Positions 2,887-48,792 of a stretch of 52,111 nt of DNA are shown here, piece by piece. A model generated the notes under the pieces. The model was not told the DNA's origin. It saw only the letters and a list, made by a program, of their open reading frames with translations, and did not search any database. A program made the position numbers and the translations under genes. The DNA lies in contig CAZNTZ010000003.1 of the NCBI GenBank assembly GCA_964576135.1, forward strand, positions 1 through 52,111, written 5' to 3'. Source of the stretch: an uncultured Muribaculaceae bacterium (GTDB lineage Bacteria > Pseudomonadota > Alphaproteobacteria > Rs-D84). Position 1 is the first letter of the stretch, and each line of letters opens with the position of its first letter.

Positions 2887-3513
2887 TTATAAATTACATT
2901 TATCAAGGCGGTGGCTGTCTTCGTTTTGATCGACTTTCTTATTACGGATTTCTTCTTCGGCTTTTAATTTCTGTTTCAGTAATATAATTTCGGGGTTGTT
3001 TTGAATATCAGCATTAAATTCATCAAGCGCTGAATCTGCGTCATTTTGGGTTTTAAAAAATATTGGAACTATGGAATTTGCAGCACTGGAAACTGCACGT
3101 TTGATTTCTGATTCATTATTACTAATTACAGCCAGATGTGCCCGGATATGTTCGTCTTCGTGTTCCAATATTGCGTTATATGCACACGATTCTGGTATAT
3201 GTCTGGAATCAATTTGAACTGAAAAATCACTGTACCCAATTGTTGCTGTGACCCTGTCCAGGACAACGCATATTCCGTTATCAACATATTCTGGGTGTGC
3301 TGAAATACTATATTTTTCAGTCAATGTTGCGACAACGTTACCATGCAACAAATCCATTGATTTTAACGGTTGAACAACTTCTTTGCGCCAATTTGGTACC
3401 AAAACATCTATTTTTGGATAAACCTTGAACCCCAGACACTCTGTATCATCTGCAAACGCAGGAATTGTGACAAAGGTAAGACAAATATATAAAATTTTGA
3501 TTATTTTACGCAT
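2887..3513 (-). CDS. Secreted protein with an HExxH motif (HEDEH), a candidate Zn-metallopeptidase-like protein; reminiscent of DUF922 from memory only
   Basis: ORF 2887..3528. The likely ATG at 3513 gives MRKIIKILYICLTFVTIPAFA|DD, a classic signal peptide. It carries an ILEHEDEHIRAH motif and a charged helical C-terminal tail. It starts 21 nt downstream of the virB4 stop. Confidence 0.5.
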   Translation of the reverse strand: MRKIIKILYICLTFVTIPAFADDTECLGFKVYPKIDVLVPNWRKEVVQPLKSMDLLHGNVVATLTEKYSISAHPEYVDNGICVVLDRVTATIGYSDFSVQIDSRHIPESCAYNAILEHEDEHIRAHLAVISNNESEIKRAVSSAANSIVPIFFKTQNDADSALDEFNADIQNNPEIILLKQKLKAEEEIRNKKVDQNEDSHRLDKCNL

Positions 3514-39346: not shown

Positions 39347-39369
39347 CGATAAGTTTGGAAATATTTGTC

Positions 39370-40701
39370 ATGAAAAAAATAATTTTACTATTTTTAGTTA
39401 GTTGTTCAGTGTTTGTTACTGCGCCATCTTTTGCCCAAGATGATTGCGCATCTATTAAATCTGTACCGTCGGGAGAGTTGAATCTGCAACAAGTGATAGA
39501 ATTAGGACTTTGCCGTAACCCAACCACACGGAGCAGTTATCTGGCATCGGAATCTGCTCGTATGAACAAAAATGCTGGATATTCAAAGTATTTGCCATCG
39601 GTTGACGCATCGGCTAGTGCTGGGAAATCTTATCAAAATGAACAGTGGGGCGATTGGTCAAAAGGTGTTTCTGTTTCAGCATCTTATTTAATTTTTGATT
39701 TTGGCAAAAGATTCGAAGATTTGAATACTTTGGCCGCAACGTGGCGTGCGACTGGTTTTGATTACAGTGATTCAGTTCAAAATTATGTTTATAGTATCAT
39801 AGCTGGATATTATTCAATGCTGACCGCAAATGCAGAGGTTAAAACTGCAAATGATTTAGTCAAAGTTGCCGAAGAAGCGAAAAACACTGCGGATAAAAAA
39901 TTCAGGGCAGGTGCAGTTGCCAAGTCTGATGTATTGAAAGCGGACACAACTCTTGCTTCGAAAAGGCTTGATTTGGAACGTTCCAAAGGAAACAGAGAGA
40001 TCGCAAAGGCAAAACTTTTGTCATTATTATCATTTCCGCAAGATAATGAATTAAAAATACGTGATATGCCCGCAGAATTCGGCGGCGTTACAGAATCCGA
40101 AAATATACAAGAAATGCTTGATAAAGCAAAAAAGCAACGGCCAGATTTGCTTTCAGCTGCTGAAAATACAAATGCTGCTTGGCACAAGCGTAATTCAACA
40201 TTTTTACAACATTTACCAAGTATTTCAGCCAGTGGTAACATTTCTTATGATGCAACATCATTAAATGCATATAACACAGGTCAGGACCGGGTAAGCGGTC
40301 AAATTGGGATTCGTGCAACAATGCCTTTGTTTGCTGGTTTTGCCCAAGTTTATAGTGATCGAGCAGCAACAATAAATTATGAACGTGCGCAAGAGCAAGA
40401 AAGGGCTAGAACAGATTCTGCAGAGCTTGATGTTTGGACCGCTTTTCAAAATTATAAAACAGCCAGAGATGTTTTAAGCCAAACAGAAATTTTATTGAAA
40501 TCGGCCAAAGAATCAGAACGTGTTGTTGCTGGTATGTACAAAGTCGGGCGCAGTACTATGCTGGATTGGCAAACTGCCCAGGCAGATTTGGCAGATGCGC
40601 AAAAGCAAAATATTGCGGCAAAATATGATTTATTTGTAAAACGTGCGGCATTGGCACTTGCAATTGGTGATATCAAAGCCGGTTTAGAAAACAAAGGTTG
40701 A
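39370..40701 (+). CDS. TolC-family outer membrane efflux protein
   Basis: Signal peptide MKKIILLFLVSCSVFVTAPSFA|QD and a two-repeat OEP architecture with long coiled-coil segments. About 443 aa. Confidence 0.85.
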   Translation: MKKIILLFLVSCSVFVTAPSFAQDDCASIKSVPSGELNLQQVIELGLCRNPTTRSSYLASESARMNKNAGYSKYLPSVDASASAGKSYQNEQWGDWSKGVSVSASYLIFDFGKRFEDLNTLAATWRATGFDYSDSVQNYVYSIIAGYYSMLTANAEVKTANDLVKVAEEAKNTADKKFRAGAVAKSDVLKADTTLASKRLDLERSKGNREIAKAKLLSLLSFPQDNELKIRDMPAEFGGVTESENIQEMLDKAKKQRPDLLSAAENTNAAWHKRNSTFLQHLPSISASGNISYDATSLNAYNTGQDRVSGQIGIRATMPLFAGFAQVYSDRAATINYERAQEQERARTDSAELDVWTAFQNYKTARDVLSQTEILLKSAKESERVVAGMYKVGRSTMLDWQTAQADLADAQKQNIAAKYDLFVKRAALALAIGDIKAGLENKG

Positions 40702-40706
40702 TTAAA

Positions 40707-41885
40707 ATGTGGAATTATATAAAAAACAAGAAATGGGTTATTTTAATAATAATGGCAATTGTTGGCACAGTGATATACATGTCTGGTAATAATGTAAAAC
40801 AAGATTCGGCAAAATATGCAAGCATGCCAATTTCACGTGGTAATTTGCGACAGATTGTTACAGCGACCGGCGAAATTCGCCCAGTGAATACAATTTTAGT
40901 TGGGAGCCAAGTTTCGGGTAATATTGAAAAAATCTATGTTGATTATAATGATAAGGTAAAAAAAGGTCAAATTCTGTTAAAAATTGAACCTTCGGTATTA
41001 AAAGCATCAGTTAATGAAGCCAAAGCAACACTTGATTCCGCAATATCACAACTTGAATTTGATCGTGCAGAATATAAGCGTGATCAAGATTTGTTTGCAA
41101 ATGGTTTTATTGCCCGTGCTGAAATGGAAAAATCAAAAACCCAATTTAATACAAGTGAACAATCTGTTAAACGTGCGCGTTCACAATATGATCGTGCCGT
41201 GACAAACCTTGGCTATGCAACAATTACATCACCAGCTGATGGGACAATAATTTCACGCAAAGTTGACGAGGGTCAAACAGTTGCTGCAAACTTTCAGACA
41301 CCGGATTTATTCGAGTTAGCAGAAGATCTTTCAAAAATGCAGATTGAAACAGCAATAAGCGAAGCTGATATCGGTTTAATCAAAGTTGGTCAAACTGTTT
41401 CATTTACAGTTGATGCATATCCAACACAGACGTTCGAGGGTAGTGTAAAACAAATTCGACTTTCGCCAACTACGACCCAAAATGTTGTTGTTTATACAGT
41501 AATAATAAATGTTGATAACACTGATTTACGTCTGATGCCAGGCATGACAGCATTCGTAACGGTTCTTGTCGCAGAAAAAGAGAATGTTTGGAAGGCTGCT
41601 AATTCTGCATTTTTAGTTCGTTCATACAAAGCTGTACTGGATGATTTGAATATAAAAAATGACAAAATAACACCAAAGGAATATTTGATAATTGAACGCA
41701 GCGGTAAAAAGTCGGAAATTAAAATAATTCCTTATAAAAAGGGTTTAATTACTGCCACTGAGACAGAGATTATAGCAGACGGTTTGCAAGATGGTGATAA
41801 GATTATAATTGGTAAGTTGGGTGGTGTCTCGACTGGTTCATCTATGTCACATGGCGGCGGTCCAATGGGTGGTGGCCCAGATTAA
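40707..41885 (+). CDS. Periplasmic adaptor (HlyD/MacA-type membrane fusion protein)
   Basis: N-terminal TM anchor, a lipoyl-like half in TATGEIRPVNTILVGSQVSGNIEKIYVD, a coiled-coil hairpin, ITSPADGTII, and beta-barrel/MP domains. It has a Gly-rich tail. Confidence 0.85.
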   Translation: MWNYIKNKKWVILIIMAIVGTVIYMSGNNVKQDSAKYASMPISRGNLRQIVTATGEIRPVNTILVGSQVSGNIEKIYVDYNDKVKKGQILLKIEPSVLKASVNEAKATLDSAISQLEFDRAEYKRDQDLFANGFIARAEMEKSKTQFNTSEQSVKRARSQYDRAVTNLGYATITSPADGTIISRKVDEGQTVAANFQTPDLFELAEDLSKMQIETAISEADIGLIKVGQTVSFTVDAYPTQTFEGSVKQIRLSPTTTQNVVVYTVIINVDNTDLRLMPGMTAFVTVLVAEKENVWKAANSAFLVRSYKAVLDDLNIKNDKITPKEYLIIERSGKKSEIKIIPYKKGLITATETEIIADGLQDGDKIIIGKLGGVSTGSSMSHGGGPMGGGPD

Positions 41886-41915
41886 AACAAAGCGCACGTA
41901 AAGTGCGCTTTGTTT
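41885..41915. terminator. Perfect 13-bp-stem bidirectional terminator between the MFP gene and the convergent thyA
   Basis: AAACAAAGCGCAC-GTAAA-GTGCGCTTTGTTT. Confidence 0.8.
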
Positions 41916-42789
41916 ATATTGATATTTCGCCCTTGATATGTGGGTGAGAAAGATAACCATTTCTTTTTTCTTGGTATTTTTGCCAATTTGGGTCATCAGC
42001 AAATTTTTTTGCTAACTTTTTTTCGGTTTCTGGGTCGTATCCAATTCTGAAATCTTCGAACTTAAAATCATCAATATGTTTAACGTTCGGGTTTATAAAC
42101 ATTTTTGGCAAAGGATACGGTTTGCGTAAAATTTGTGATTTCATTTGATCTATATGATTTAAATAAATATGGTGGCTGCCAAATGTATGTATAAATTCAC
42201 CTGGTTTCAGGTTGCATACTTGTGCGACCATCATCGTCAGTAAAGCATAAGATGCTATGTTAAAAGGGACGCCCAAGAATATATCAGCACTGCGTTGATA
42301 CATTTGACACGAAAGTTTTCCATCAGTGATATAGAATTGAAACATCATGTGACATGGTGGTAACGCCATATTATCAAGTTCTCCGACATTCCATGCGCTT
42401 ACTATGTGGCGTCTTGAATTTGGGTTATTTTTTATTTGATTAATAACATCTGATAGTTGGTCAATTTTACGACTATCCGCCGCTGGCCAAGACCGCCATT
42501 GATTGCCATAAACTGGACCAAGTTCACCGTTTTTATCGGCCCATTCGTTCCAAATTGAAACATTATTATCTTGCAGATATTTGATATTGGTATCCCCACG
42601 TATAAACCACAAAAGTTCATAAATAACGCTTTTGAGACTCAGTTTTTTGGTAGTTGTAATAGGGAAACCCGTAGATAAATCATGTCTGTTTTGCCAACCA
42701 AAACAATCCAAGGTTCCCGTACCTGTACGATCCATCTTAGTAACGCCATGATCCAGAACATATTTAACTTGTGTTAAATATTGCTTCAT
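41914..42789 (-). CDS. thyA: Thymidylate synthase ThyA with a 28-aa insertion near the C-terminus
   Basis: MKQYL..V..+[14 protein letters not shown] and QRSAD+[14 protein letters not shown] motifs. I chose the ATG at 42789. See the finding on the insertion. Confidence 0.92.
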
Positions 42790-42873
42790 TTTATGACCTC
42801 TTATTGGACTCTCGGATCTCCCCTGTGGATAAGTCATATATAACAACTAAATTTATTATAAGTAAAGGATAAA

Positions 42874-43611
42874 TTGTGTGATATAATCAAAGACATGAAG
42901 CAAAATACAGTAGTAAGTCTTAAAAATATAAACAAAGATTTTACACTTGAAGTAGGTGGTGTTCAACGTGTGCTTTTTGACGTCTCTTTTGATATAAAAC
43001 CCGGTGAATTTGTATCAATAATGGGGCCATCTGGATCTGGAAAATCTACTTGTATGAATATAATCGGTGCGCTGGATACACCAACTTCTGGGATTTATAA
43101 GCTTTATGATAAAGATATAACAAATCTGTCAAATGATGAGCTGGCGGTTGCTCGGAATGAATATATTGGTTTCGTATTTCAAAATTTTAATTTATTGCCA
43201 AAACGAAGTGTTCTCGACAATGTTATGTTGCCCCTTATGTACAGGGGATTGCCGGACGAAGAGCGTGAGGTTAGAGCGCGAAAAATGCTTGCTTCGGTCG
43301 GGCTTAATAATTTTGAAACATATCTGCCAACCCAGCTTTCTGGGGGTATGAAGCAACGAGTTGCCATCGCACGTGCGCTGGCTGGGGATCCTAAATTAAT
43401 ACTTGCCGACGAGCCGACAGGTAATTTGGACTCTAAAATGGGATATGAAATTTTACAAATGTTTGAAAAATTAAATCGTGACTTTGGAATTACAGTTGTT
43501 ATGATTACTCATGAGTTTGATATTGCAAAGCACACAAACCGTTTGATTCATATTCGTGATGGTAAGATTACACATGACGGTCCTGTGCCCAAAGACGAAA
43601 GGACATTGTGA
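42874..43611 (+). CDS. ABC transporter ATP-binding protein (MacB/LolD-type)
   Basis: Walker A GPSGSGKST, Q-loop FVFQNFNLLP, signature LSGGMKQRVAIARAL, Walker B ILADEPTGNLD. The start is ambiguous: TTG 42874 with an AAAGGA Shine-Dalgarno, or ATG 42895. Confidence 0.9.
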   Translation: MCDIIKDMKQNTVVSLKNINKDFTLEVGGVQRVLFDVSFDIKPGEFVSIMGPSGSGKSTCMNIIGALDTPTSGIYKLYDKDITNLSNDELAVARNEYIGFVFQNFNLLPKRSVLDNVMLPLMYRGLPDEEREVRARKMLASVGLNNFETYLPTQLSGGMKQRVAIARALAGDPKLILADEPTGNLDSKMGYEILQMFEKLNRDFGITVVMITHEFDIAKHTNRLIHIRDGKITHDGPVPKDERTL

Positions 43612-44300
43612 TGATTATTAAAACTCCAGCGCAATTGTATAGTTTGTTTTATAAAAATATAATTGGCACTGAAAAATATTCATCTTCGGCCAAGCAATTG
43701 GACGACCAAATAAAGAATTCTGGATATTTATACCCAAAATTCTATCACTTATACCAATTACCTAATTCAAGGGCGCGTTTGGCAATTCGTTCAGCTTTGC
43801 TTTTGTTGTTTTCAAATCCAAAGGAGGGTATAAATCATTTGGAACAGTATTTGAAACAGAATATTGAAATATCCGATGATTTGTATTCGAAATTAGATGT
43901 TTTGCAGAAAAAAGCAGAATCAGAGATATTGCGTTTGACAAGATATATAAAAATTTACAATAAAGAACTGCGCAACATAGATACATCAAAATCCCAGATG
44001 AGAATTCATTTTATTCGTGGCGCAATTTATGGCTATCCCCCAGAAAATATAGATTTTTGGATGAAAAATTATCCAGATAACGAAAAATTTAACGAAGGTA
44101 GGGATTATACCACAACCTTGATTGATAAGTTCGGAATCAGACCAGAAGCAATGAGATTGACATTGGCACAGAAAAAATCGCTAGTAGAGTCTTTGGAAAG
44201 TCAGCGGATAAATATGTTTGAAAAAGTTGATACTTTTGGAAGAAAGGACACAAGCGGTTTTTTGTGTTTTCAAGAAGCCAAGGGATATTATGAGTATTAA
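43611..44300 (+). CDS. Hypothetical cytoplasmic protein, paralog A (unknown family) embedded in the ABC operon
   Basis: About 229 aa, with no signal peptide or TM segment. Its start overlaps the ATPase stop (TGATG, or GTGA if GTG 43608 is used). It shares FxxGAxxGYxPExI and Y.Y.LP motifs with the next ORF. Confidence 0.6.
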   Translation: MIIKTPAQLYSLFYKNIIGTEKYSSSAKQLDDQIKNSGYLYPKFYHLYQLPNSRARLAIRSALLLLFSNPKEGINHLEQYLKQNIEISDDLYSKLDVLQKKAESEILRLTRYIKIYNKELRNIDTSKSQMRIHFIRGAIYGYPPENIDFWMKNYPDNEKFNEGRDYTTTLIDKFGIRPEAMRLTLAQKKSLVESLESQRINMFEKVDTFGRKDTSGFLCFQEAKGYYEY

Positions 44301-44306
44301 AATACA

Positions 44307-44915
44307 ATGGCTTGTAAGAAACAAATATCTTTGATGTCAGAATTGATAAACGAAATGATGGCTCCGTATCGTCGCGTTTATAACTCTGCATCTAAAGAAT
44401 TAGAAGAACATTTAATGGCTGCAGGTATAGAATTACCTTTTGCAATTCATTATGAATATAAATTGCCTGATGGTTTAACCCCTGTGGAATTTGACGAACA
44501 TAATAAAAAAATATTCGTTCATACAACTTATAATGATGATTTTTATAAATATTTGACGATTTCTCCAGAATTATTAGAAGTTCTGGAAACTAATAAACAA
44601 AAATATATAAACTTGTCAAACAAGTATGCAGATTTTCTGAAAAACAATAATCCAGAATTATCAGAAATTGTTTTAGAAAATCATGACGATTTAATTGCTT
44701 TCTTAGATGGTGCAGCATTTGGTTACGGTCCAGAAGAAATTAGGTATTTTATATCGATAAAAAAGCAAATGATAGAAAGATTCAAAAACGGTATAAAGTT
44801 CAGACGTTTATTGGGATATGTTCCGAGATATGTTTTGTCACCAGAACATAACCAAGCAATCATTTGTGCATTGGAATTACGTAAATCTGAAATAAAATCG
44901 GATAAAAATAAATGA
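44307..44915 (+). CDS. Hypothetical cytoplasmic protein, paralog B (unknown family) embedded in the ABC operon
   Basis: 202 aa. It starts 6 nt after paralog A, and its stop overlaps the permease start (ATGA). It is homologous to paralog A along its whole length. Confidence 0.6.
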   Translation: MACKKQISLMSELINEMMAPYRRVYNSASKELEEHLMAAGIELPFAIHYEYKLPDGLTPVEFDEHNKKIFVHTTYNDDFYKYLTISPELLEVLETNKQKYINLSNKYADFLKNNNPELSEIVLENHDDLIAFLDGAAFGYGPEEIRYFISIKKQMIERFKNGIKFRRLLGYVPRYVLSPEHNQAIICALELRKSEIKSDKNK

Positions 44916-46129
44916 CATTCAAAGATATTTTGAAAGAATCGTGGTTATCTATATCGGGGAATAAAGTCCGATCAGTTCTAACTATACTTGGTATTATTAT
45001 CGGTGTTATGGCTGTTGTGATTATGGTAGCCGTGGGTGAAACAGTTCAAAAACAAATTGATGACCAATTTTCATCACTTGGGACAAATACAATAATGATT
45101 CGTGCAGGTGCTGCACAAAGTGCCGGTATTCGCCAAGGTAATCGACAGACACTTACATTTCAAGATTCTGATGCAATCGGAAAACTTGGTGATGTTATGG
45201 CGGTAAGCCCGGTTCAAAACAGTGCTGCGCAAATAATTTATGGTAATAAAAACTGGTCAACAAGTTTGGTTGGATCTTATCCAGATTATGCAATAATTCA
45301 AAGTATAGATCTGGAAAAGGGAATGTTTTTTGATCAATCAGCACTTCGAAATGGTGCAACCTATGCGGTGATTGGGCCAAAAGTTGCCAAAGAACTTGAA
45401 ATGCCAGAAGATCCTATAGGGCAAGTTATAAGAATTCAAAATATGCCATTTGTTATTATTGGTCTCACGCGTGAGCGTGGCGAGTCCATGGGTAATAACC
45501 AAGATGATATGGTAATAATACCGATAACTACGTTAAAGAAAAGAATGCATGGCGGACGTTTTCCAGATTCTGTACCCATGATTACGCTCAAACTTTATCC
45601 GGATGCAGATAATGCGATTGCGGTTGAAACAGTGACACAGTTGCTGCGACAAAATCACAAGTTAAAAGATGGTGCACTTGATGATTTTCAAATTATGAAT
45701 ATGAAGCAAATAATGGAAACAATGGATACAATTACTGGTTTTATGAAGATGTTGTTAATTTCAATTGCCAGTGTTTCACTTTTGGTGGGATCAATTGGTA
45801 TTATGAATATGATGTTGGTTAGTGTTGCAGAGAGAACACGTGAAATCGGTATCAGAAAGGCAATAGGCGCACGTGAAAAACAAATAATTATCCAGTTTTT
45901 ATCAGAATCTATATTGATATCATTCATTGGGTCAATGATTGGTTTGTTTATTGGTGTTGGTCTTGCCCAGGGGGTCGGGCGTTTTATAATGGGTTATGAT
46001 GTTCCAATTTCTTTGTGGTCAGTAATTTTATCAGTCATAGTTGCCATTGTTGTCGGTATATCTTCGGGTGTTTTTCCGGCAATCAAAGCTGCTAAATTAA
46101 ATCCGATTGATTCGTTGCGTCATGAATAA
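44912..46129 (+). CDS. ABC transporter permease, MacB/FtsX type (4 TM plus a periplasmic domain)
   Basis: 405 aa. N-terminal L+.....+..NK+RS.LT.LGI+IGV, a large periplasmic MacB_PCD-like domain, and a C-terminal FtsX domain with ERTREIGIRKA+GA and P...AA+L.P+..L. Confidence 0.9.
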   Translation: MTFKDILKESWLSISGNKVRSVLTILGIIIGVMAVVIMVAVGETVQKQIDDQFSSLGTNTIMIRAGAAQSAGIRQGNRQTLTFQDSDAIGKLGDVMAVSPVQNSAAQIIYGNKNWSTSLVGSYPDYAIIQSIDLEKGMFFDQSALRNGATYAVIGPKVAKELEMPEDPIGQVIRIQNMPFVIIGLTRERGESMGNNQDDMVIIPITTLKKRMHGGRFPDSVPMITLKLYPDADNAIAVETVTQLLRQNHKLKDGALDDFQIMNMKQIMETMDTITGFMKMLLISIASVSLLVGSIGIMNMMLVSVAERTREIGIRKAIGAREKQIIIQFLSESILISFIGSMIGLFIGVGLAQGVGRFIMGYDVPISLWSVILSVIVAIVVGISSGVFPAIKAAKLNPIDSLRHE

Positions 46130-46172: not shown

Positions 46173-47693
46173 ATGAAAAAAATCCTTGGTATCTGTGTAG
46201 GAGCAGTACTTTCAGGACTTGCTACGGCCTCCGTCGCAGGTGATTTGGTCGTCTCTAAAGATAAAGTTATTGATACCCCTGAAACAATCTCTTTTGATAG
46301 CGGTGTTATTCAAAATTTTGGGGTAATAAACAGTGGTATTTTTATCAATCCTGGAAATATGGTTCAAATTCAAAATGCTGGGGAAATAAATGGTTCTGTT
46401 GATATATATAAGTCCACTACGTATTTAACCCAGGTCGTATATGGCCCAGCAGATATGAATTTTATCAATGTAAATAATTATGATTCTGACGGTTATGCGC
46501 ATTTTAATATTATGGCCCAAAGTGCATCAGGTGTCGATTTTGGTGGGCTAGAATTGCTTTCTGGTGGACGTGCGGAAAAAATAATTATCAAAGATTCTAT
46601 AATAACTTTTGATTTGTCCGCAGCGCCCAGCAATACTTTTACAGAATTTCAAGGCGAGAATGTTTTGTTTATTAAAAATGCTGAACCGGGAAATTTCTTA
46701 TTACTCAGTAATGCTAGTATAGATTCAGGTGGTTCTGTTATTGCGCGTACGGATCAGTTGGGTTTATACGTTCCAGAAACGACATTTGATAATGGAAAAT
46801 TGTACCTCAATATTGTTCGTGATTATGATTATCAAAAAATTATTGGGTCAGATTTTGGGACAAAAATAAATATAATTCGTGCAAGTGATCCAAGTAACAG
46901 AACTGTTAACGCTCTTGATTCTGCTAAAACTCAATCGGACATAGATAGAATTATCAAAAACTCTGCAATGTTTACACCGATAAATTTAACCAAAGATCTT
47001 GAAATAATAAACAAATTATACAATCTGGGAAACGGGGTCGGTGATATTTCTATGACTGGCAGAGCCAGCTATGTAACAGGACCCAATGTCAAAGCCGAGA
47101 TTGGAGAGTTTGGAACAAGTTTCATTTTCCAGGATATAGAGTTGTCTGTTTCAGGAATGTTAGGGAAAATTGAACATAATTCAGATTATGATGAATATTC
47201 TGCATTTGTTTATGGTGGTGCAATAGATACAAAATACAATTTCAAACCAATGTGGCTGGCTTTGGGTGGGGCATATACCATTGCCCAGTTTGAAACAGGT
47301 GTAATATTTGAAGGTGAAAATGAAACAAGAAATCCAAATGGATCGAGTCTGTTTAATTATATAGAAATTGGTTCTCGTTTTGGGTTTGATGAATTTTATA
47401 TTGAACCATCTGTTGGTGCAGGATTTATACATTCCGATGTTTTAAGTTATACAAAACAAGATTTATTTGAGAAATCTAAACTTGTAATTGGCACAAAATA
47501 TGATGATAACGATGGTTTCAGGTATAATCACGGGGTATTTATAGGTAATACAGGTGATGACATAGTTTTTGGTGCAAATTTCTATATGCAGAGCATAGAA
47601 GATGTTGCAAAGGTTGGTTTTGTTTATACCGGTTTGAACACAGATCACAGAATTTATCATAAACTTGGGATTGAATTTTCCGCAGAATTTTAG
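46173..47693 (+). CDS. Autotransporter-like outer membrane protein (about 230-aa passenger plus C-terminal beta-barrel)
   Basis: Signal peptide MKKILGICVGAVLSGLATASVAG. The C-terminal ~250 aa show an alternating amphipathic beta-strand pattern and end in an aromatic residue (...GIEFSAEF). A helical linker lies around DIDRIIKNSAMF. Confidence 0.6.
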   Translation: MKKILGICVGAVLSGLATASVAGDLVVSKDKVIDTPETISFDSGVIQNFGVINSGIFINPGNMVQIQNAGEINGSVDIYKSTTYLTQVVYGPADMNFINVNNYDSDGYAHFNIMAQSASGVDFGGLELLSGGRAEKIIIKDSIITFDLSAAPSNTFTEFQGENVLFIKNAEPGNFLLLSNASIDSGGSVIARTDQLGLYVPETTFDNGKLYLNIVRDYDYQKIIGSDFGTKINIIRASDPSNRTVNALDSAKTQSDIDRIIKNSAMFTPINLTKDLEIINKLYNLGNGVGDISMTGRASYVTGPNVKAEIGEFGTSFIFQDIELSVSGMLGKIEHNSDYDEYSAFVYGGAIDTKYNFKPMWLALGGAYTIAQFETGVIFEGENETRNPNGSSLFNYIEIGSRFGFDEFYIEPSVGAGFIHSDVLSYTKQDLFEKSKLVIGTKYDDNDGFRYNHGVFIGNTGDDIVFGANFYMQSIEDVAKVGFVYTGLNTDHRIYHKLGIEFSAEF

Positions 47694-47706
47694 TTTAATA
47701 AGATTC

Positions 47707-48792
47707 GTGATAACAAATATAAATCTTTCTAATTTTAGAAATCATAAACACGGACGCTTATCGGCCGGTGGTCACAGCAATATTATTATTACTGGTCCGA
47801 ATGGCAGCGGTAAAACTGCAGTTTTAGAATCAATTTCTGTATTCAGTTCTGGGGGCGGGTTACGTGGCGCAAATATGTCTGAAATAGCAAATTTTGGTAC
47901 GGATAGTTTTTCTGTAAAACTTGATTTATCTGATGGTACAGAACTGTCTGCAATATGGAACGGAGAAGCGCATCGCAAGATTCGAATTGATGGAGATGCC
48001 GCTGCATTATCTGATTTGCCGTCACATTTACCGCTTGTGTGGTTAACCCCAAAAGAAGATAGAATTTTTATTGATGCTGCATCGGATAGACGCATTTTTT
48101 TTGATCGTTTGGTTTCGGCATTTAACCCATCGCATGCCGGTCGTGTTGCACGGCTTAATAAACTATTATCCGAAAGAGCATTTGCGCTTAAAAACGGTTC
48201 AAATAATGCATGGTTAACCCCGATAGAATTAAATATAGCCCAGATTGCGGCAAGTATTGCCAGTGCACGTATCAAATATGCCAGTGAAATAAATTACATT
48301 CTTTCCAATGAATCCAGGATAAATAGTTTTGAATCACAACTTAGCCTGGCTGGTTGGTTTGAATCACGCATCACTGCTGGAATATCATCAAGTGACATTG
48401 AAAACGAGTATATTTCTTACCTTGCACAAAATCGGGACCTGGTTTCAGACAAAATGGTAATTGATGGTGCGCATAAATCAGATTTTGGTATGTTTTCGAA
48501 TAAACTTAGCCTGCCGATTACATTGGCCAGCACTGGGCAACAAAAAATGGCTCTGCTTGGACTTATTCTTGCCCATTCACGCTTAGTTTATTCGTCAATT
48601 GGTAAGACGCCCATAATTTTGCTTGATGAAGCAGTGGCCCATTTAGATGAATCTGCGCGACTCGCTTTGTTTTCATCTTTGTCAGAATCACATGCTCAGG
48701 TTTGGGCAACTGGTATAGATGAATCAGTTTTTGCATGTGTGCCAGATGCACAATTTGTGTCTTGCGATAACGGACAAATTATGCAAACATAG
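47707..48792 (+). CDS. recF: DNA replication and repair protein RecF
   Basis: L.NFRNH, Walker A GPNGSGKTAVLE, signature STGQQKMALLGL, and Walker B ILLDEAVAHLD. I prefer the GTG at 47707 (M-ITNINLSNFRN). The TTG at 47665 would overlap the upstream gene by 29 nt. Confidence 0.85.
   Translation: MITNINLSNFRNHKHGRLSAGGHSNIIITGPNGSGKTAVLESISVFSSGGGLRGANMSEIANFGTDSFSVKLDLSDGTELSAIWNGEAHRKIRIDGDAAALSDLPSHLPLVWLTPKEDRIFIDAASDRRIFFDRLVSAFNPSHAGRVARLNKLLSERAFALKNGSNNAWLTPIELNIAQIAASIASARIKYASEINYILSNESRINSFESQLSLAGWFESRITAGISSSDIENEYISYLAQNRDLVSDKMVIDGAHKSDFGMFSNKLSLPITLASTGQQKMALLGLILAHSRLVYSSIGKTPIILLDEAVAHLDESARLALFSSLSESHAQVWATGIDESVFACVPDAQFVSCDNGQIMQT

What the first reader, a model, noticed from the sequence alone, without database searches (positions are those of the whole stretch)
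43608..44915. Tandem pair of paralogous cytoplasmic proteins of unrecognised family, packed tightly between MacB-type ATPase and permease genes
Two ORFs (about 229 aa and 202 aa) fill the space between the ABC ATPase and its permease with essentially no intergenic DNA. The ATPase stop overlaps the first start (TGATG, or GTGA). The second ORF starts 6 nt after the first. Its stop overlaps the permease start (ATGA at 44912-44915). That packing argues for co-translation with the pump subunits. The two proteins are clearly homologous to each other:
- SSSAKQLDDQIKNSGYLYP aligns with NSASKELEEHLMAAGIELP.
- FYHLYQLPNS aligns with IHYEYKLPDG.
- FIRGAIYGYPPENIDFW aligns with FLDGAAFGYGPEEIRYF.

Neither has a signal peptide or TM helix. 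Both are K/E/N-rich and look helical. I do not recognise the F-x-x-G-A-x-x-G-Y-x-P-E-x-I motif as belonging to a named family. The DNA looks somewhat more AT-rich than the flanking transporter genes. Possible roles, all inference, are cytoplasmic accessory or regulatory subunits of the pump, substrate-maturation or chaperone proteins for an exported product, or an immunity or addiction pair that has lodged in the operon. This is my best candidate in the window for an undescribed functional module.
Basis: partly seen in the sequence, partly recalled or inferred. Interest (0 to 1): 0.75.

Follow-up and report, generated by a model that had tools for sequence, protein, structure and literature searches.

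The report
Unknown proteins inside MacB/Lol transporter operons
Two real genes wedged between the ATPase and permease genes of a MacB-type efflux pump belong to a never-annotated protein family with no recognisable fold, and in gut Alphaproteobacteria with small genomes this family repeatedly sits in the same slot of two different transporters (MacB and the lipoprotein sorter LolCDE), so it may be a cytoplasmic partner of these machines, of which none is known.

Summary
ORF-A (43608/43611-44300) and ORF-B (44307-44915) fill the gap between a split MacB ATPase gene and its permease gene, with overlapping stop and start codons.

- **Homology:** the two are homologous (24% identity, E=3e-6). They are anciently diverged members of two subfamilies, A-type and B-type, and are not recent duplicates.
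- **Family:** an exhaustive HMMER search finds about 115 cluster representatives, all 190-270 aa and soluble. Where a source names them, the name is "hypothetical protein". None matches Pfam, NCBIfam, PADLOC or PHROGs.
- **Fold:** a high-confidence AlphaFold model (pLDDT 95) is all-alpha and has no Foldseek match in the PDB or in viral structures.
- **Context:** in 15 of 23 loci found through the protein itself, the gene lies exactly between the permease and ATPase genes of a type VII ABC transporter. The order is either MacA-NBD-X-permease or, in another lineage, lolCE-X-lolD. The family tree groups by context.
- **Against a core subunit:** about 74 of 80 related Candidatus Enterousia pumps lack it. 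It evolves several times faster than its neighbours, is sometimes swapped for a divergent allele, and has stand-alone paralogs.

Best reading (confidence about 0.4): a dispensable cytoplasmic modulator of type VII ABC ATPases that may act as a dimer. Function is unproven.

The parts
39355..40701 (+). TolC-like outer-membrane factor gene of the pump operon
   Evidence: Pfam OEP, E=1e-48. It is conserved upstream of macA in most related loci.
40698..41885 (+). MacA-like periplasmic adaptor (membrane-fusion protein) gene
   Evidence: Pfam HlyD_D23 and HlyD_3. It is 57-65% identical to the gene in the same position in related loci.
42874..43611 (+). MacB-type ABC ATPase (NBD) gene, encoded separately from the permease
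   Evidence: Pfam ABC_tran, E=2e-33. It matches NCBIfam MacB positions 4-229. Its TGA stop at 43609-43611 overlaps the ORF-A start.
43608..44300 (+). ORF-A: A-type member of the new family 'X' (229 aa from ATG 43611, or 230 aa from GTG 43608). Motifs: SSSAKQL...YQLP at 43680-43763, NKELRNI at 43959-43979, FIRGAIYGYPPENIDFW at 44010-44060.
   Evidence: The family was found by exhaustive HMMER search. The AlphaFold2 model has pLDDT 95.4 and pTM 0.87 and is all-alpha. The A-type signature IHFIRGA.YGYPPENI.FWIKNYP is present. ORF-A groups with other A-type genes found in the MacB slot.
44307..44915 (+). ORF-B: B-type member of family 'X' (202 aa). Motifs: NSASKEL...YKLP at 44382-44468, NPELSEI at 44649-44669, FLDGAAFGYGPEEIRYF at 44700-44750.
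   Evidence: 24% identical to ORF-A, E=3e-6. 30-34% identical to the single B-type genes in the same slot of L001, L011, L037 and L090. It groups with them in the family tree. Its stop overlaps the permease start as ATGA.
44912..46129 (+). MacB-type permease gene (four TM helices plus a periplasmic domain)
   Evidence: Pfam MacB_PCD (E=3e-44) and FtsX (E=1e-22). It matches NCBIfam MacB positions 253-648. 68-78% identical to 80 related loci.

Best explanation
ORF-A and ORF-B encode two anciently diverged paralogs (A-type and B-type) of a previously unannotated family of soluble, all-alpha cytoplasmic proteins, called X here. The family appears confined to gut Alphaproteobacteria related to Candidatus Enterousia (order Rs-D84).

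**Shown**
- The genes are real and under purifying selection.
- They are co-oriented with the ATPase and permease genes of type VII (MacB-superfamily) ABC transporters, and their stop and start codons overlap those genes.
- Separate, old paralog groups occupy that slot in the MacAB-TolC operon (NBD-X-permease) and in the lolCE-lolD operon (permease-X-NBD).

**Inferred**
- X is made together with the transporter subunits by coupled translation.
- It binds the cytoplasmic face of the transporter, most plausibly the LolD/MacB-class ATPase dimer, which is the part the two systems share.
- It acts as a homodimer, an A/B heterodimer (as in this window) or a fused pseudo-dimer.
- It tunes the ATPase cycle or links it to a cytoplasmic signal.
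- It is an optional modulator, not a core subunit.
For: 1. **Real proteins.** There are 117 cluster representatives at E<=1e-3, of which 62 are at E<=1e-10. Three motifs are conserved across the family. The AlphaFold2 model built with the family alignment has pLDDT 95.4 and pTM 0.87. dN/dS is 0.16-0.19 in the closest pairs.
2. **Position.** The MacB slot is occupied in the window, L001, L011, L037, L041, L082, L090, L104/105 and L108. The Lol slot is occupied in L081, L083-86, L094-99, L101 and L102. There the permease scores 409 bits on NCBIfam lolCE (cut-off 362) and the ATPase's best match is LolD. Among loci found through X itself, 15 of 23 are in such a slot. The two gene orders share no DNA target, so site-specific insertion cannot explain both.
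3. **Tight junctions in both contexts.** The NBD stop and X start read TGATG or TAATG in the window, L001, L011, L037, L041 and L104. The lolCE stop and X start read ATGAGTAA or ATGAATAA. The X stop and lolD start read TAATG in L081.
4. **The family tree groups by context.** There are MacB-A, MacB-B, Lol and stand-alone clades. All five A-type loci examined are in the MacB slot. The associations are therefore old and specific to each paralog group.
5. **Hints of a dimer.** The window has an adjacent A+B pair. P0044 and P0069 are fusions of two family domains. One MAG carries an A-type gene in the MacB slot and a B-type gene elsewhere.
6. **No sign of mobility or defence.** There are no plasmid, phage or IMG/VR hits and no consistent PADLOC hit.
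Against: 1. **Dispensable for the pump.** About 74 of 80 related loci have the NBD and permease genes 2-45 nt apart with nothing between them. Within the insert-bearing subclade, L002, L009 and L017 also lack X.
2. **The slot can hold other cargo.** In L027 it holds a 23S_rRNA_IVP four-helix-bundle gene. The operon also tolerates other inserted genes: thyA in the window and Ldh in L104.
3. **Fast evolution.** X is 23-44% identical where the flanking genes are 65-87% identical. In L081 versus L096 the flanks are 92-94% identical and X is 32%, with DNA identity collapsing exactly over X. That is unusual for a partner docking on a conserved ATPase.
4. **Stand-alone loci.** Six to eight loci have no ABC neighbour.
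5. **No fusions.** No fusion of X to an ABC ATPase or permease was found among the 117 representatives.
7. **Sampling limits.** The Lol-slot loci were ascertained through X, so how often lolCE-lolD lacks X in that lineage is unknown.
Confidence: 0.4

Rival explanations
1. Operon hitch-hiker. X is a lineage-specific paralog family whose function has nothing to do with the pumps. Its members sit in permissive slots of constitutively transcribed operons in very compact genomes, where they get expression for free, and each position has simply been inherited vertically.
For: - Most related pumps lack X.
- The same slot holds an unrelated 23S_rRNA_IVP gene in L027.
- The operon also carries unrelated inserts: thyA in the window and Ldh in L104/105.
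- Stand-alone paralogs lie next to unrelated housekeeping genes such as PFOR, ClpP/PGK, TsaE, LysRS and LppC.
- X has lower GC and GC3 than both neighbours in all 10 loci tested.
- L011 carries a duplicated permease start that looks like an insertion scar.
- Rs-D84 genomes are under 1 Mb and densely coded (PMC12306168).
Against: - Landing exactly between the permease and ATPase genes in two different type VII ABC operons with opposite gene orders is unlikely by chance. My rough estimate is about 1e-3, taking about 9 independent positions, about 4 such slots and about 900 intergenic sites (inference).
- The paralog groups are specific to their contexts and old.
- The stop/start overlaps are conserved.
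Confidence: 0.3
2. Conflict-related protein. X is an immunity-like or decoy protein under diversifying selection. For example, it might protect type VII ABC ATPases, or some other cytoplasmic target, from inhibitors delivered by competitors or phages. The conserved motifs would form the scaffold and the rest of the protein would vary.
For: - Divergence is extreme relative to the flanking genes, and an allele replacement has sharp boundaries (L081 versus L096: 32% against 92-94%).
- There are multiple paralogs per genome, tandem arrangements and fused tandems, as is typical of polymorphic immunity genes (own knowledge).
- GC is lower than in the neighbours.
- pI ranges widely across the family, from 4.6 to 9.7.
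Against: - No toxin or effector gene is adjacent in any locus.
- There is no consistent PADLOC match: 4 different single hits among 80 members.
- dN/dS is well below 1 where it can be measured.
- The family is not found on plasmids, phages or viral contigs.
Confidence: 0.15
3. Cargo or cargo-handling protein. X is a substrate of the pump, or a chaperone or maturation factor for a product the pump exports.
For: The only support is position inside a pump operon. MacAB-type pumps do export peptides and toxins (PMC5985334).
Against: - Type VII ABC transporters take substrates from the periplasm or the outer leaflet, not the cytoplasm (PMC5985334).
- X has no signal peptide or TM segment; 115 of 117 members have a hydropathy maximum no higher than 1.6.
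- The same family sits in the lolCE-lolD operon, whose substrates are lipoproteins.
- No biosynthetic or precursor genes are nearby.
Confidence: 0.05
4. Spurious or decaying ORFs. Under this rival the two ORFs are non-functional filler DNA.
For: GC is lower than in the neighbours, the sequence evolves fast, and the ORFs are absent from most relatives.
Against: - Reading frames are intact in every locus examined.
- Three motifs are conserved across 117 representatives.
- The AlphaFold model built from the family alignment is high-confidence.
- dN/dS is 0.16-0.19.
Confidence: 0.02

Closest known systems
Dedicated partners of type VII ABC transporters: MacA (MacAB-TolC), LolA (LolCDE), EnvC (FtsEX), TesA (YbbAP)
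   Same: They are non-transporter proteins tied to one particular MacB-superfamily transporter. MacA (and typically TesA) is encoded beside its transporter genes (PMC5985334, PMC12646458).
   Different: All known partners act in the periplasm or are membrane-anchored on the periplasmic side. X has no signal peptide or TM segment and no sequence or fold similarity to any solved structure. The reviews I read describe no cytoplasmic partner for this transporter class.
Cytoplasmic regulators of ABC ATPases: EIIA-Glc on MalK, and the C-terminal regulatory domains of MetN and ModC (own knowledge)
   Same: The proposed way of working is the same: a soluble cytoplasmic protein or domain that binds the NBD dimer and modulates the ATPase cycle.
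   Different: These act on importers, have unrelated folds, and are not encoded between the NBD and permease genes. No similarity was detected. For X the interaction itself is untested.
TetR-family local repressors of efflux pumps (for example AcrR)
   Same: They are all-alpha proteins of about 200-240 aa, dimeric, fast-evolving outside a conserved part, and encoded beside pump genes.
   Different: None of the 80 members matches TetR_N or any other HTH family in Pfam. Foldseek matches to AcrR and DarR are insignificant (E>1, TM about 0.2). X lies inside the operon, between subunit genes, with overlapping stop and start codons, rather than divergently upstream. Its conserved motifs are not at the N-terminus.
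23S rRNA intervening-sequence protein family (PF05635), four-helix-bundle ORFs
   Same: It is a small helical ORF of unknown role that occupies the identical NBD|permease slot in the close relative L027.
   Different: It is unrelated in sequence: the family HMM gives no hit in the L027 gap. It is half the size and widespread across bacteria.
Polymorphic immunity proteins and orphan immunity arrays (own knowledge)
   Same: Shared features are rapid divergence, allele replacement, tandem and fused paralogs, and lower GC.
   Different: There is no cognate toxin gene, no consistent match in the defence library (PADLOC), and the genes are embedded in housekeeping transporter operons.

Membership tests
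MacB-type (type VII) tripartite ABC efflux pump; applies to the flanking genes, not to ORF-A/B | ABC ATPase domain, plus a permease with four TM helices, the FtsX fold and a large periplasmic domain (MacB_PCD) | tested here: met
   ABC_tran E=2e-33; MacB_PCD E=3e-44; FtsX E=1e-22. NCBIfam MacB positions 4-229 match the ATPase and positions 253-648 match the permease.
MacB-type (type VII) tripartite ABC efflux pump; applies to the flanking genes | Cognate periplasmic adaptor (MacA/HlyD type) and TolC-like outer-membrane factor | tested here: met
   HlyD_D23 and HlyD_3 at 40698-41885, and OEP at 39355-40701. The same order is seen in related loci.
Known Pfam, NCBIfam, PHROG or PADLOC families (ORF-A, ORF-B and 78 relatives) | Significant match to any curated profile | tested here: not met
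   For ORF-A and ORF-B nothing reaches a significant score; the best matches are E>=0.0027 and far below the curated Pfam cut-offs. For the 80 members scanned, there were only scattered single hits in Pfam and PADLOC and no hit in NCBIfam.
Any solved protein fold (PDB) or predicted viral protein fold (BFVD) | Foldseek match with E<=1e-3, or TM>0.5, to a high-confidence model | tested here: not met
   The model has pLDDT 95.4. The best PDB match has E=0.66 and TM about 0.2. The best BFVD match has E=0.57. A sequence profile against the PDB gives a best E of 0.039, on a coiled-coil chimera. AlphaFold DB was not available.
TetR-family transcriptional regulators | N-terminal helix-turn-helix (TetR_N) | tested here: not met
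   No TetR_N or other HTH family was found in 80 members. Foldseek matches to AcrR and DarR have E>1.
Periplasmic partners of type VII ABC transporters (MacA, LolA, EnvC, TesA) | Export signal or membrane anchor, and homology to one of these families | tested here: not met
   The maximum 19-residue hydropathy is 0.75 for ORF-A and ORF-B, and no higher than 1.6 in 115 of 117 members. No Pfam match was found. SignalP-type predictors were not available.
Toxin-antitoxin, immunity or anti-phage defence modules | Adjacent toxin or effector gene, or a match to known defence or immunity profiles | tested here: not met
   The neighbours are transporter subunits or housekeeping genes. PADLOC gives no consistent hit.
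Mobile genes (homing endonucleases, IS elements, phage morons) | Nuclease or transposase domain, terminal repeats, or presence on phages or plasmids | tested here: not met
   No such Pfam domains were found. There are no tblastn hits in 72,556 plasmids or 50,697 phages, and no confirmed hit in IMG/VR. The family tree groups by genomic context. Terminal repeats were not searched for systematically.
Subunit of the transporter complex (the functional claim for X) | Physical association with the NBD or permease, and an effect on activity | not testable with these tools
   The only evidence is genomic: slot position, overlapping codons and context-specific paralog groups. Complex prediction and experiments were not available.

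The most novel reading that the evidence does not exclude
X is the first cytoplasmic partner protein of the mechanotransmission (type VII) ABC transporters. It would be a new-fold, dimeric modulator with dedicated paralogs for MacAB-TolC (A-type and B-type, possibly a heterodimer) and for LolCDE. It would couple the ATPase cycle of envelope machines, including the Lol pathway (essential in E. coli), to the state of the cytoplasm in genome-reduced gut Alphaproteobacteria.
Probability: 0.3. Interest if true: 0.8.

Novelty: categorically new. Interest (0 to 1): 0.62.

Why it matters
Type VII ABC transporters (MacB, LolCDE, FtsEX, YbbAP) drive efflux, lipoprotein sorting and cell division. All their known partners act on the periplasmic side. 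How their ATPases are controlled from the cytoplasm is largely unknown.

A protein family that has kept a seat between the ATPase and permease genes in two such systems would be a concrete candidate for that control. It has a confidently predicted fold with no match in the PDB. It can be tested by co-expression with the cognate MacB or LolCDE subunits.

If it turns out to be unrelated to the pumps, it still matters in two smaller ways. It is a clean example of a fast-evolving, allele-swapping orphan family retained in genomes under 1 Mb. It also flags the MacAB operon of Rs-D84 bacteria as a hotspot for gene insertion.

Its narrow distribution, in uncultured gut Alphaproteobacteria, limits its general reach.

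Tried and rejected
- **Word-indexed homology searches.** Each ORF alone found only itself, which wrongly suggested ORFans. The exhaustive profile search corrected this. The third word-indexed search, with the 80-member alignment, hit the candidate cap and returned only 4 proteins.
- **Single-sequence AlphaFold.** The ORF-A model was useless (pLDDT 41). The model built with the alignment was good.
- **False positive.** P0082 (926 aa) is an Ig_7/dockerin repeat protein and was discarded.
- **Failed scan.** The metagenome scan with the full alignment failed because no stretch was conserved enough. It worked with a B-type sub-alignment, which biases that sample towards B-type genes.
- **Idea rejected: split fused MacB.** I considered that the ORFs were an insertion that split a once-fused MacB. 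All 78 relatives in which both genes were found already have separate NBD and permease genes.
- **Idea rejected: recent tandem duplication.** The pair belongs to different old subfamilies.
- **Idea rejected: decayed X in L027.** I looked for a remnant of X in the 452-nt gap of L027. There is none; the gap holds a different intact gene.
- **Idea rejected: free-standing homing endonuclease or mobile cassette.** There are no nuclease domains and no plasmid, phage or virus hits. The two host slots have opposite gene order, so they share no target site.
- **Idea rejected: TetR-like regulator.**
- **Attempt that failed: placing the Lol-linked loci taxonomically.** They share no housekeeping gene with the fetched Enterousia loci. 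The stand-alone loci L092 and L093 do share PFOR (69-75% identity) and L092 also shares SSB (68%) with Enterousia-type loci.
- **dN/dS is only rough.** dS is about 1, which is near saturation.
Full report
**1. The observation**

The ATPase ORF is 42874-43611 and ends with TGA at 43609-43611. ORF-A starts either at GTG 43608 or at ATG 43611, overlapping that stop, and ends at 44300. ORF-B starts 6 nt later at ATG 44307 and ends with TGA at 44913-44915, overlapping the permease ATG at 44912.

The flanking genes are a split MacB. The ATPase matches positions 4-229 of the E. coli MacB model and the permease matches positions 253-648, with MacB_PCD and FtsX domains. A TolC-like OEP gene and a MacA-like adaptor gene lie upstream.

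Each also cross-hits the other's relatives in other genomes.

GC falls to 0.30-0.33 in the two ORFs, against about 0.38 in the flanking genes. Neither ORF has a hydrophobic segment. The window holds no third copy.

**2. A real but unannotated family**

Word-indexed searches found only the query proteins themselves. An exhaustive HMMER search with a profile of the two ORFs against 1.84 billion cluster representatives found 117 proteins at E<=1e-3, 62 of them at E<=1e-10. One, P0082, is a false positive. Nearly all are 190-270 aa.

Three motifs are conserved:
- SSA..L...L...GI..P.KLyy.YKLP
- K..NPEL..I
- F..GA.YGF.PE.I.YF

Two subfamilies stand out. A-type carries IHFIRGA.YGYPPENI.FWIKNYP and includes ORF-A. 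B-type includes ORF-B. The window therefore holds one of each and not a recent duplicate.

No member matches any curated family. Pfam and PADLOC give only scattered single hits among the 80 members scanned. NCBIfam gives none. PHROGs gives no match for the two ORFs. In the ten clusters looked up, the only source name is "hypothetical protein".

With the 80-member alignment, AlphaFold2 gives a confident all-alpha model of ORF-A with 11 helices (pLDDT 95.4, pTM 0.87). Foldseek finds nothing similar in the PDB (best E=0.66, TM about 0.2) or in BFVD. A sequence profile against the PDB also finds nothing.

**3. Who carries it, and where it sits**

The permease retrieves 80 related loci at 68-78% identity. 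They come from gut and rumen Alphaproteobacteria MAGs, several of them named Candidatus Enterousia. That genus belongs to order Rs-D84, whose genomes are mostly under 1 Mb (PMC12306168).

In about 74 of these loci the NBD gene ends 2-45 nt before the permease gene, with nothing between. Four loci carry one family member in the slot: L041 has an A-type gene, and L001, L011 and L037 each have a B-type gene.

In an NBD+permease tree, these four loci, the window and L027 fall in one subclade. That subclade also contains three loci with an empty slot: L002, L009 and L017.

In L027 the slot holds a different gene, a 23S_rRNA_IVP four-helix-bundle ORF (94.5 bits).

Further members found through the protein itself sit in the same MacA-NBD-X-permease arrangement in more distant genomes: L082, L090, L104/105 and L108. 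All five A-type loci examined are of this kind.

**4. A second transporter**

In another set of loci the family member lies between a permease gene and an ATPase gene in the reverse order, inside a conserved module U106-U436-permease-X-ATPase-D243-D210. These loci are L081, L083-86, L094-99, L101 and L102.

That permease scores 409 bits on NCBIfam lolCE, above the curated cut-off of 362. The ATPase's best match is LolD.

So X occupies the permease|ATPase junction in two different type VII ABC systems with opposite gene orders, which rules out a shared DNA target site.

The junctions are tight in both systems. The NBD-X junction reads TGATG or TAATG. The lolCE-X junction is an 8-nt overlap. The X-lolD junction reads TAATG in L081.

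Counting only loci found through X (11 look-ups and 12 metagenome hits):
- 4 are in the MacB slot.
- 11 are in the Lol slot.
- 6 have no ABC neighbour (L088, L091, L092, L093, L100, L106).
- 2 are too short to tell (L089, L103).

The neighbours of the stand-alone copies are unrelated housekeeping genes.

A distance tree of the family groups members by context: MacB-A, MacB-B, Lol, and two or three stand-alone clades. These are therefore old paralog groups and not a gene that hops around.

One MAG (locus-tag prefix FWE50) carries an A-type gene in its MacB slot and a B-type gene elsewhere.

**5. How it evolves**

X is under purifying selection but evolves fast. dN/dS is 0.16-0.19 in the closest pairs, against 0.04-0.11 for lolCE and lolD. 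dS is about 1, so these values are rough.

Protein identity is 23-44% among the MacB-slot X genes, where the pump proteins are 65-87% identical. It averages 40% among Lol-slot X genes, where the flanks average 78-81%.

L081 and L096 differ by only 6-8% in LolD and LolCE, yet their X proteins are 32% identical. DNA identity falls from about 0.85 to about 0.5 exactly across X and recovers in lolD. That indicates replacement by a divergent allele of the same (Lol) clade.

GC and GC3 of X are lower than in both neighbours in all ten loci tested, across genome GC values from 0.38 to 0.56.

P0044 and P0069 are fusions of two family domains.

L011 keeps a roughly 34-nt duplicate of the permease ribosome-binding site and first codons right after X. 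This looks like a recombination scar.

There are no hits on plasmids, phages or viral contigs.

**6. Interpretation**

- **Shown:** a real, soluble, all-alpha protein family; unannotated; no detectable known fold; old paralog-specific placement between the permease and ATPase genes of MacB-type and LolCDE-type transporters; overlapping stop and start codons; fast evolution with allele swapping; dispensable for most related pumps.
- **Inferred:** co-production with the transporter subunits, and action on what the two systems share, namely the LolD/MacB-class ATPase dimer or the cytoplasmic face of the permease. X would be an optional modulator, probably dimeric (the A/B pair here, fused tandems elsewhere).

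I put this reading at about 0.4. The main rival, at about 0.3, is that X has an unrelated function and merely rides in permissive operon slots. It is favoured by the empty slots, the unrelated cargo in L027, the other inserts in this operon (thyA here, Ldh in L104) and the stand-alone copies. It is disfavoured by the repeated, order-independent, paralog-specific placement in two type VII systems. I estimate chance placement at roughly 1e-3 (inference, not a computed statistic).

A conflict-related role (immunity-like or decoy) is suggested by the hypervariability but lacks any toxin partner or defence-library match (about 0.15). Cargo or chaperone roles, and spurious ORFs, are unlikely.

**7. 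Comparison with what is known**

The reviews and structures I read list only periplasmic partners for type VII ABC transporters: MacA, LolA, EnvC and TesA (PMC5985334, PMC12646458). X shares none of their defining features.

It resembles TetR-type pump regulators in size, helical content and location near pumps. It fails their defining test, since it has no HTH and no fold match.

The proposed way of working is closest to cytoplasmic regulators of importer ATPases such as EIIA-Glc on MalK (own knowledge), with no homology to them.

As a protein family and fold it lies outside every known kind I could test. As a system it would be a type VII ABC operon with an extra cytoplasmic component.

**8. 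Limits**

- No complex prediction, AlphaFold DB search or HHpred was available.
I therefore could not ask whether genomes with an empty MacB slot carry X elsewhere, nor how often lolCE-lolD lacks X.
- The taxonomic identity of the Lol-linked loci is unresolved.
- The trees are distance-based, built on very divergent sequences.

Noticed in passing
window 41914-42846 (- strand): A thymidylate synthase (thyA-like) gene sits on the opposite strand between the macA-like gene and the macB ATPase gene, interrupting the operon. None of the 80 related loci has it there. Its product carries an extra stretch of about 25 residues ([28 protein letters not shown]) just before the conserved C-terminus.
   Followed up: partly
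window 46173-47693 (+ strand): A 506-aa ORF directly downstream of the permease has an N-terminal signal-like sequence. It has no Pfam match and no homolog in any of the 80 related loci. It may be a lineage-specific outer-membrane or surface protein.
   Followed up: partly
L027 9593-9943: In this close relative the NBD|permease slot holds a 23S rRNA intervening-sequence protein gene (PF05635, 94.5 bits) instead of a family-X gene. The slot therefore accepts different small helical ORFs.
   Followed up: yes
L011 about 2890-3040: Right after the stop of the X gene there is a roughly 34-nt duplicate of the permease ribosome-binding site and first 8 codons (MTFNELLRKS, against the true MTFNDILKES). 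It lies 116 nt upstream of the real permease start and looks like a recombination or insertion scar.
   Followed up: partly
L104/L105 3140-4063: A lactate/malate dehydrogenase-type gene (Ldh_1_N/Ldh_1_C) is inserted between the OEP and adaptor genes of the same MacAB-TolC operon. Together with thyA in the window, this suggests the operon is a hotspot for gene insertion in this lineage.
   Followed up: no
L084 3076-8744 (also L081, L096, L099, L101): The lolCE-X-lolD unit sits in a conserved module with four further lineage-specific genes that have no Pfam or NCBIfam match. These are U106, U436 (with a lipoprotein-type signal), D243 (with an N-terminal TM segment) and D210 (with a signal peptide, Cys-rich). 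The D243/D210 region is also hypervariable between L081 and L096.
   Followed up: partly
window 47665-48792 versus L001-L080: recF lies downstream of the pump on the same strand in the window. In most relatives it lies upstream of the TolC-like gene on the opposite strand. The neighbourhood has been rearranged in the window's genome.
   Followed up: no
L084-L086 114-1886 (- strand): The gene called next to ftsQ carries FtsA domains together with a ribulose-phosphate 3-epimerase domain (PF00834) in one 590-aa product. This is either an unusual fusion or a gene-calling artefact.
   Followed up: no
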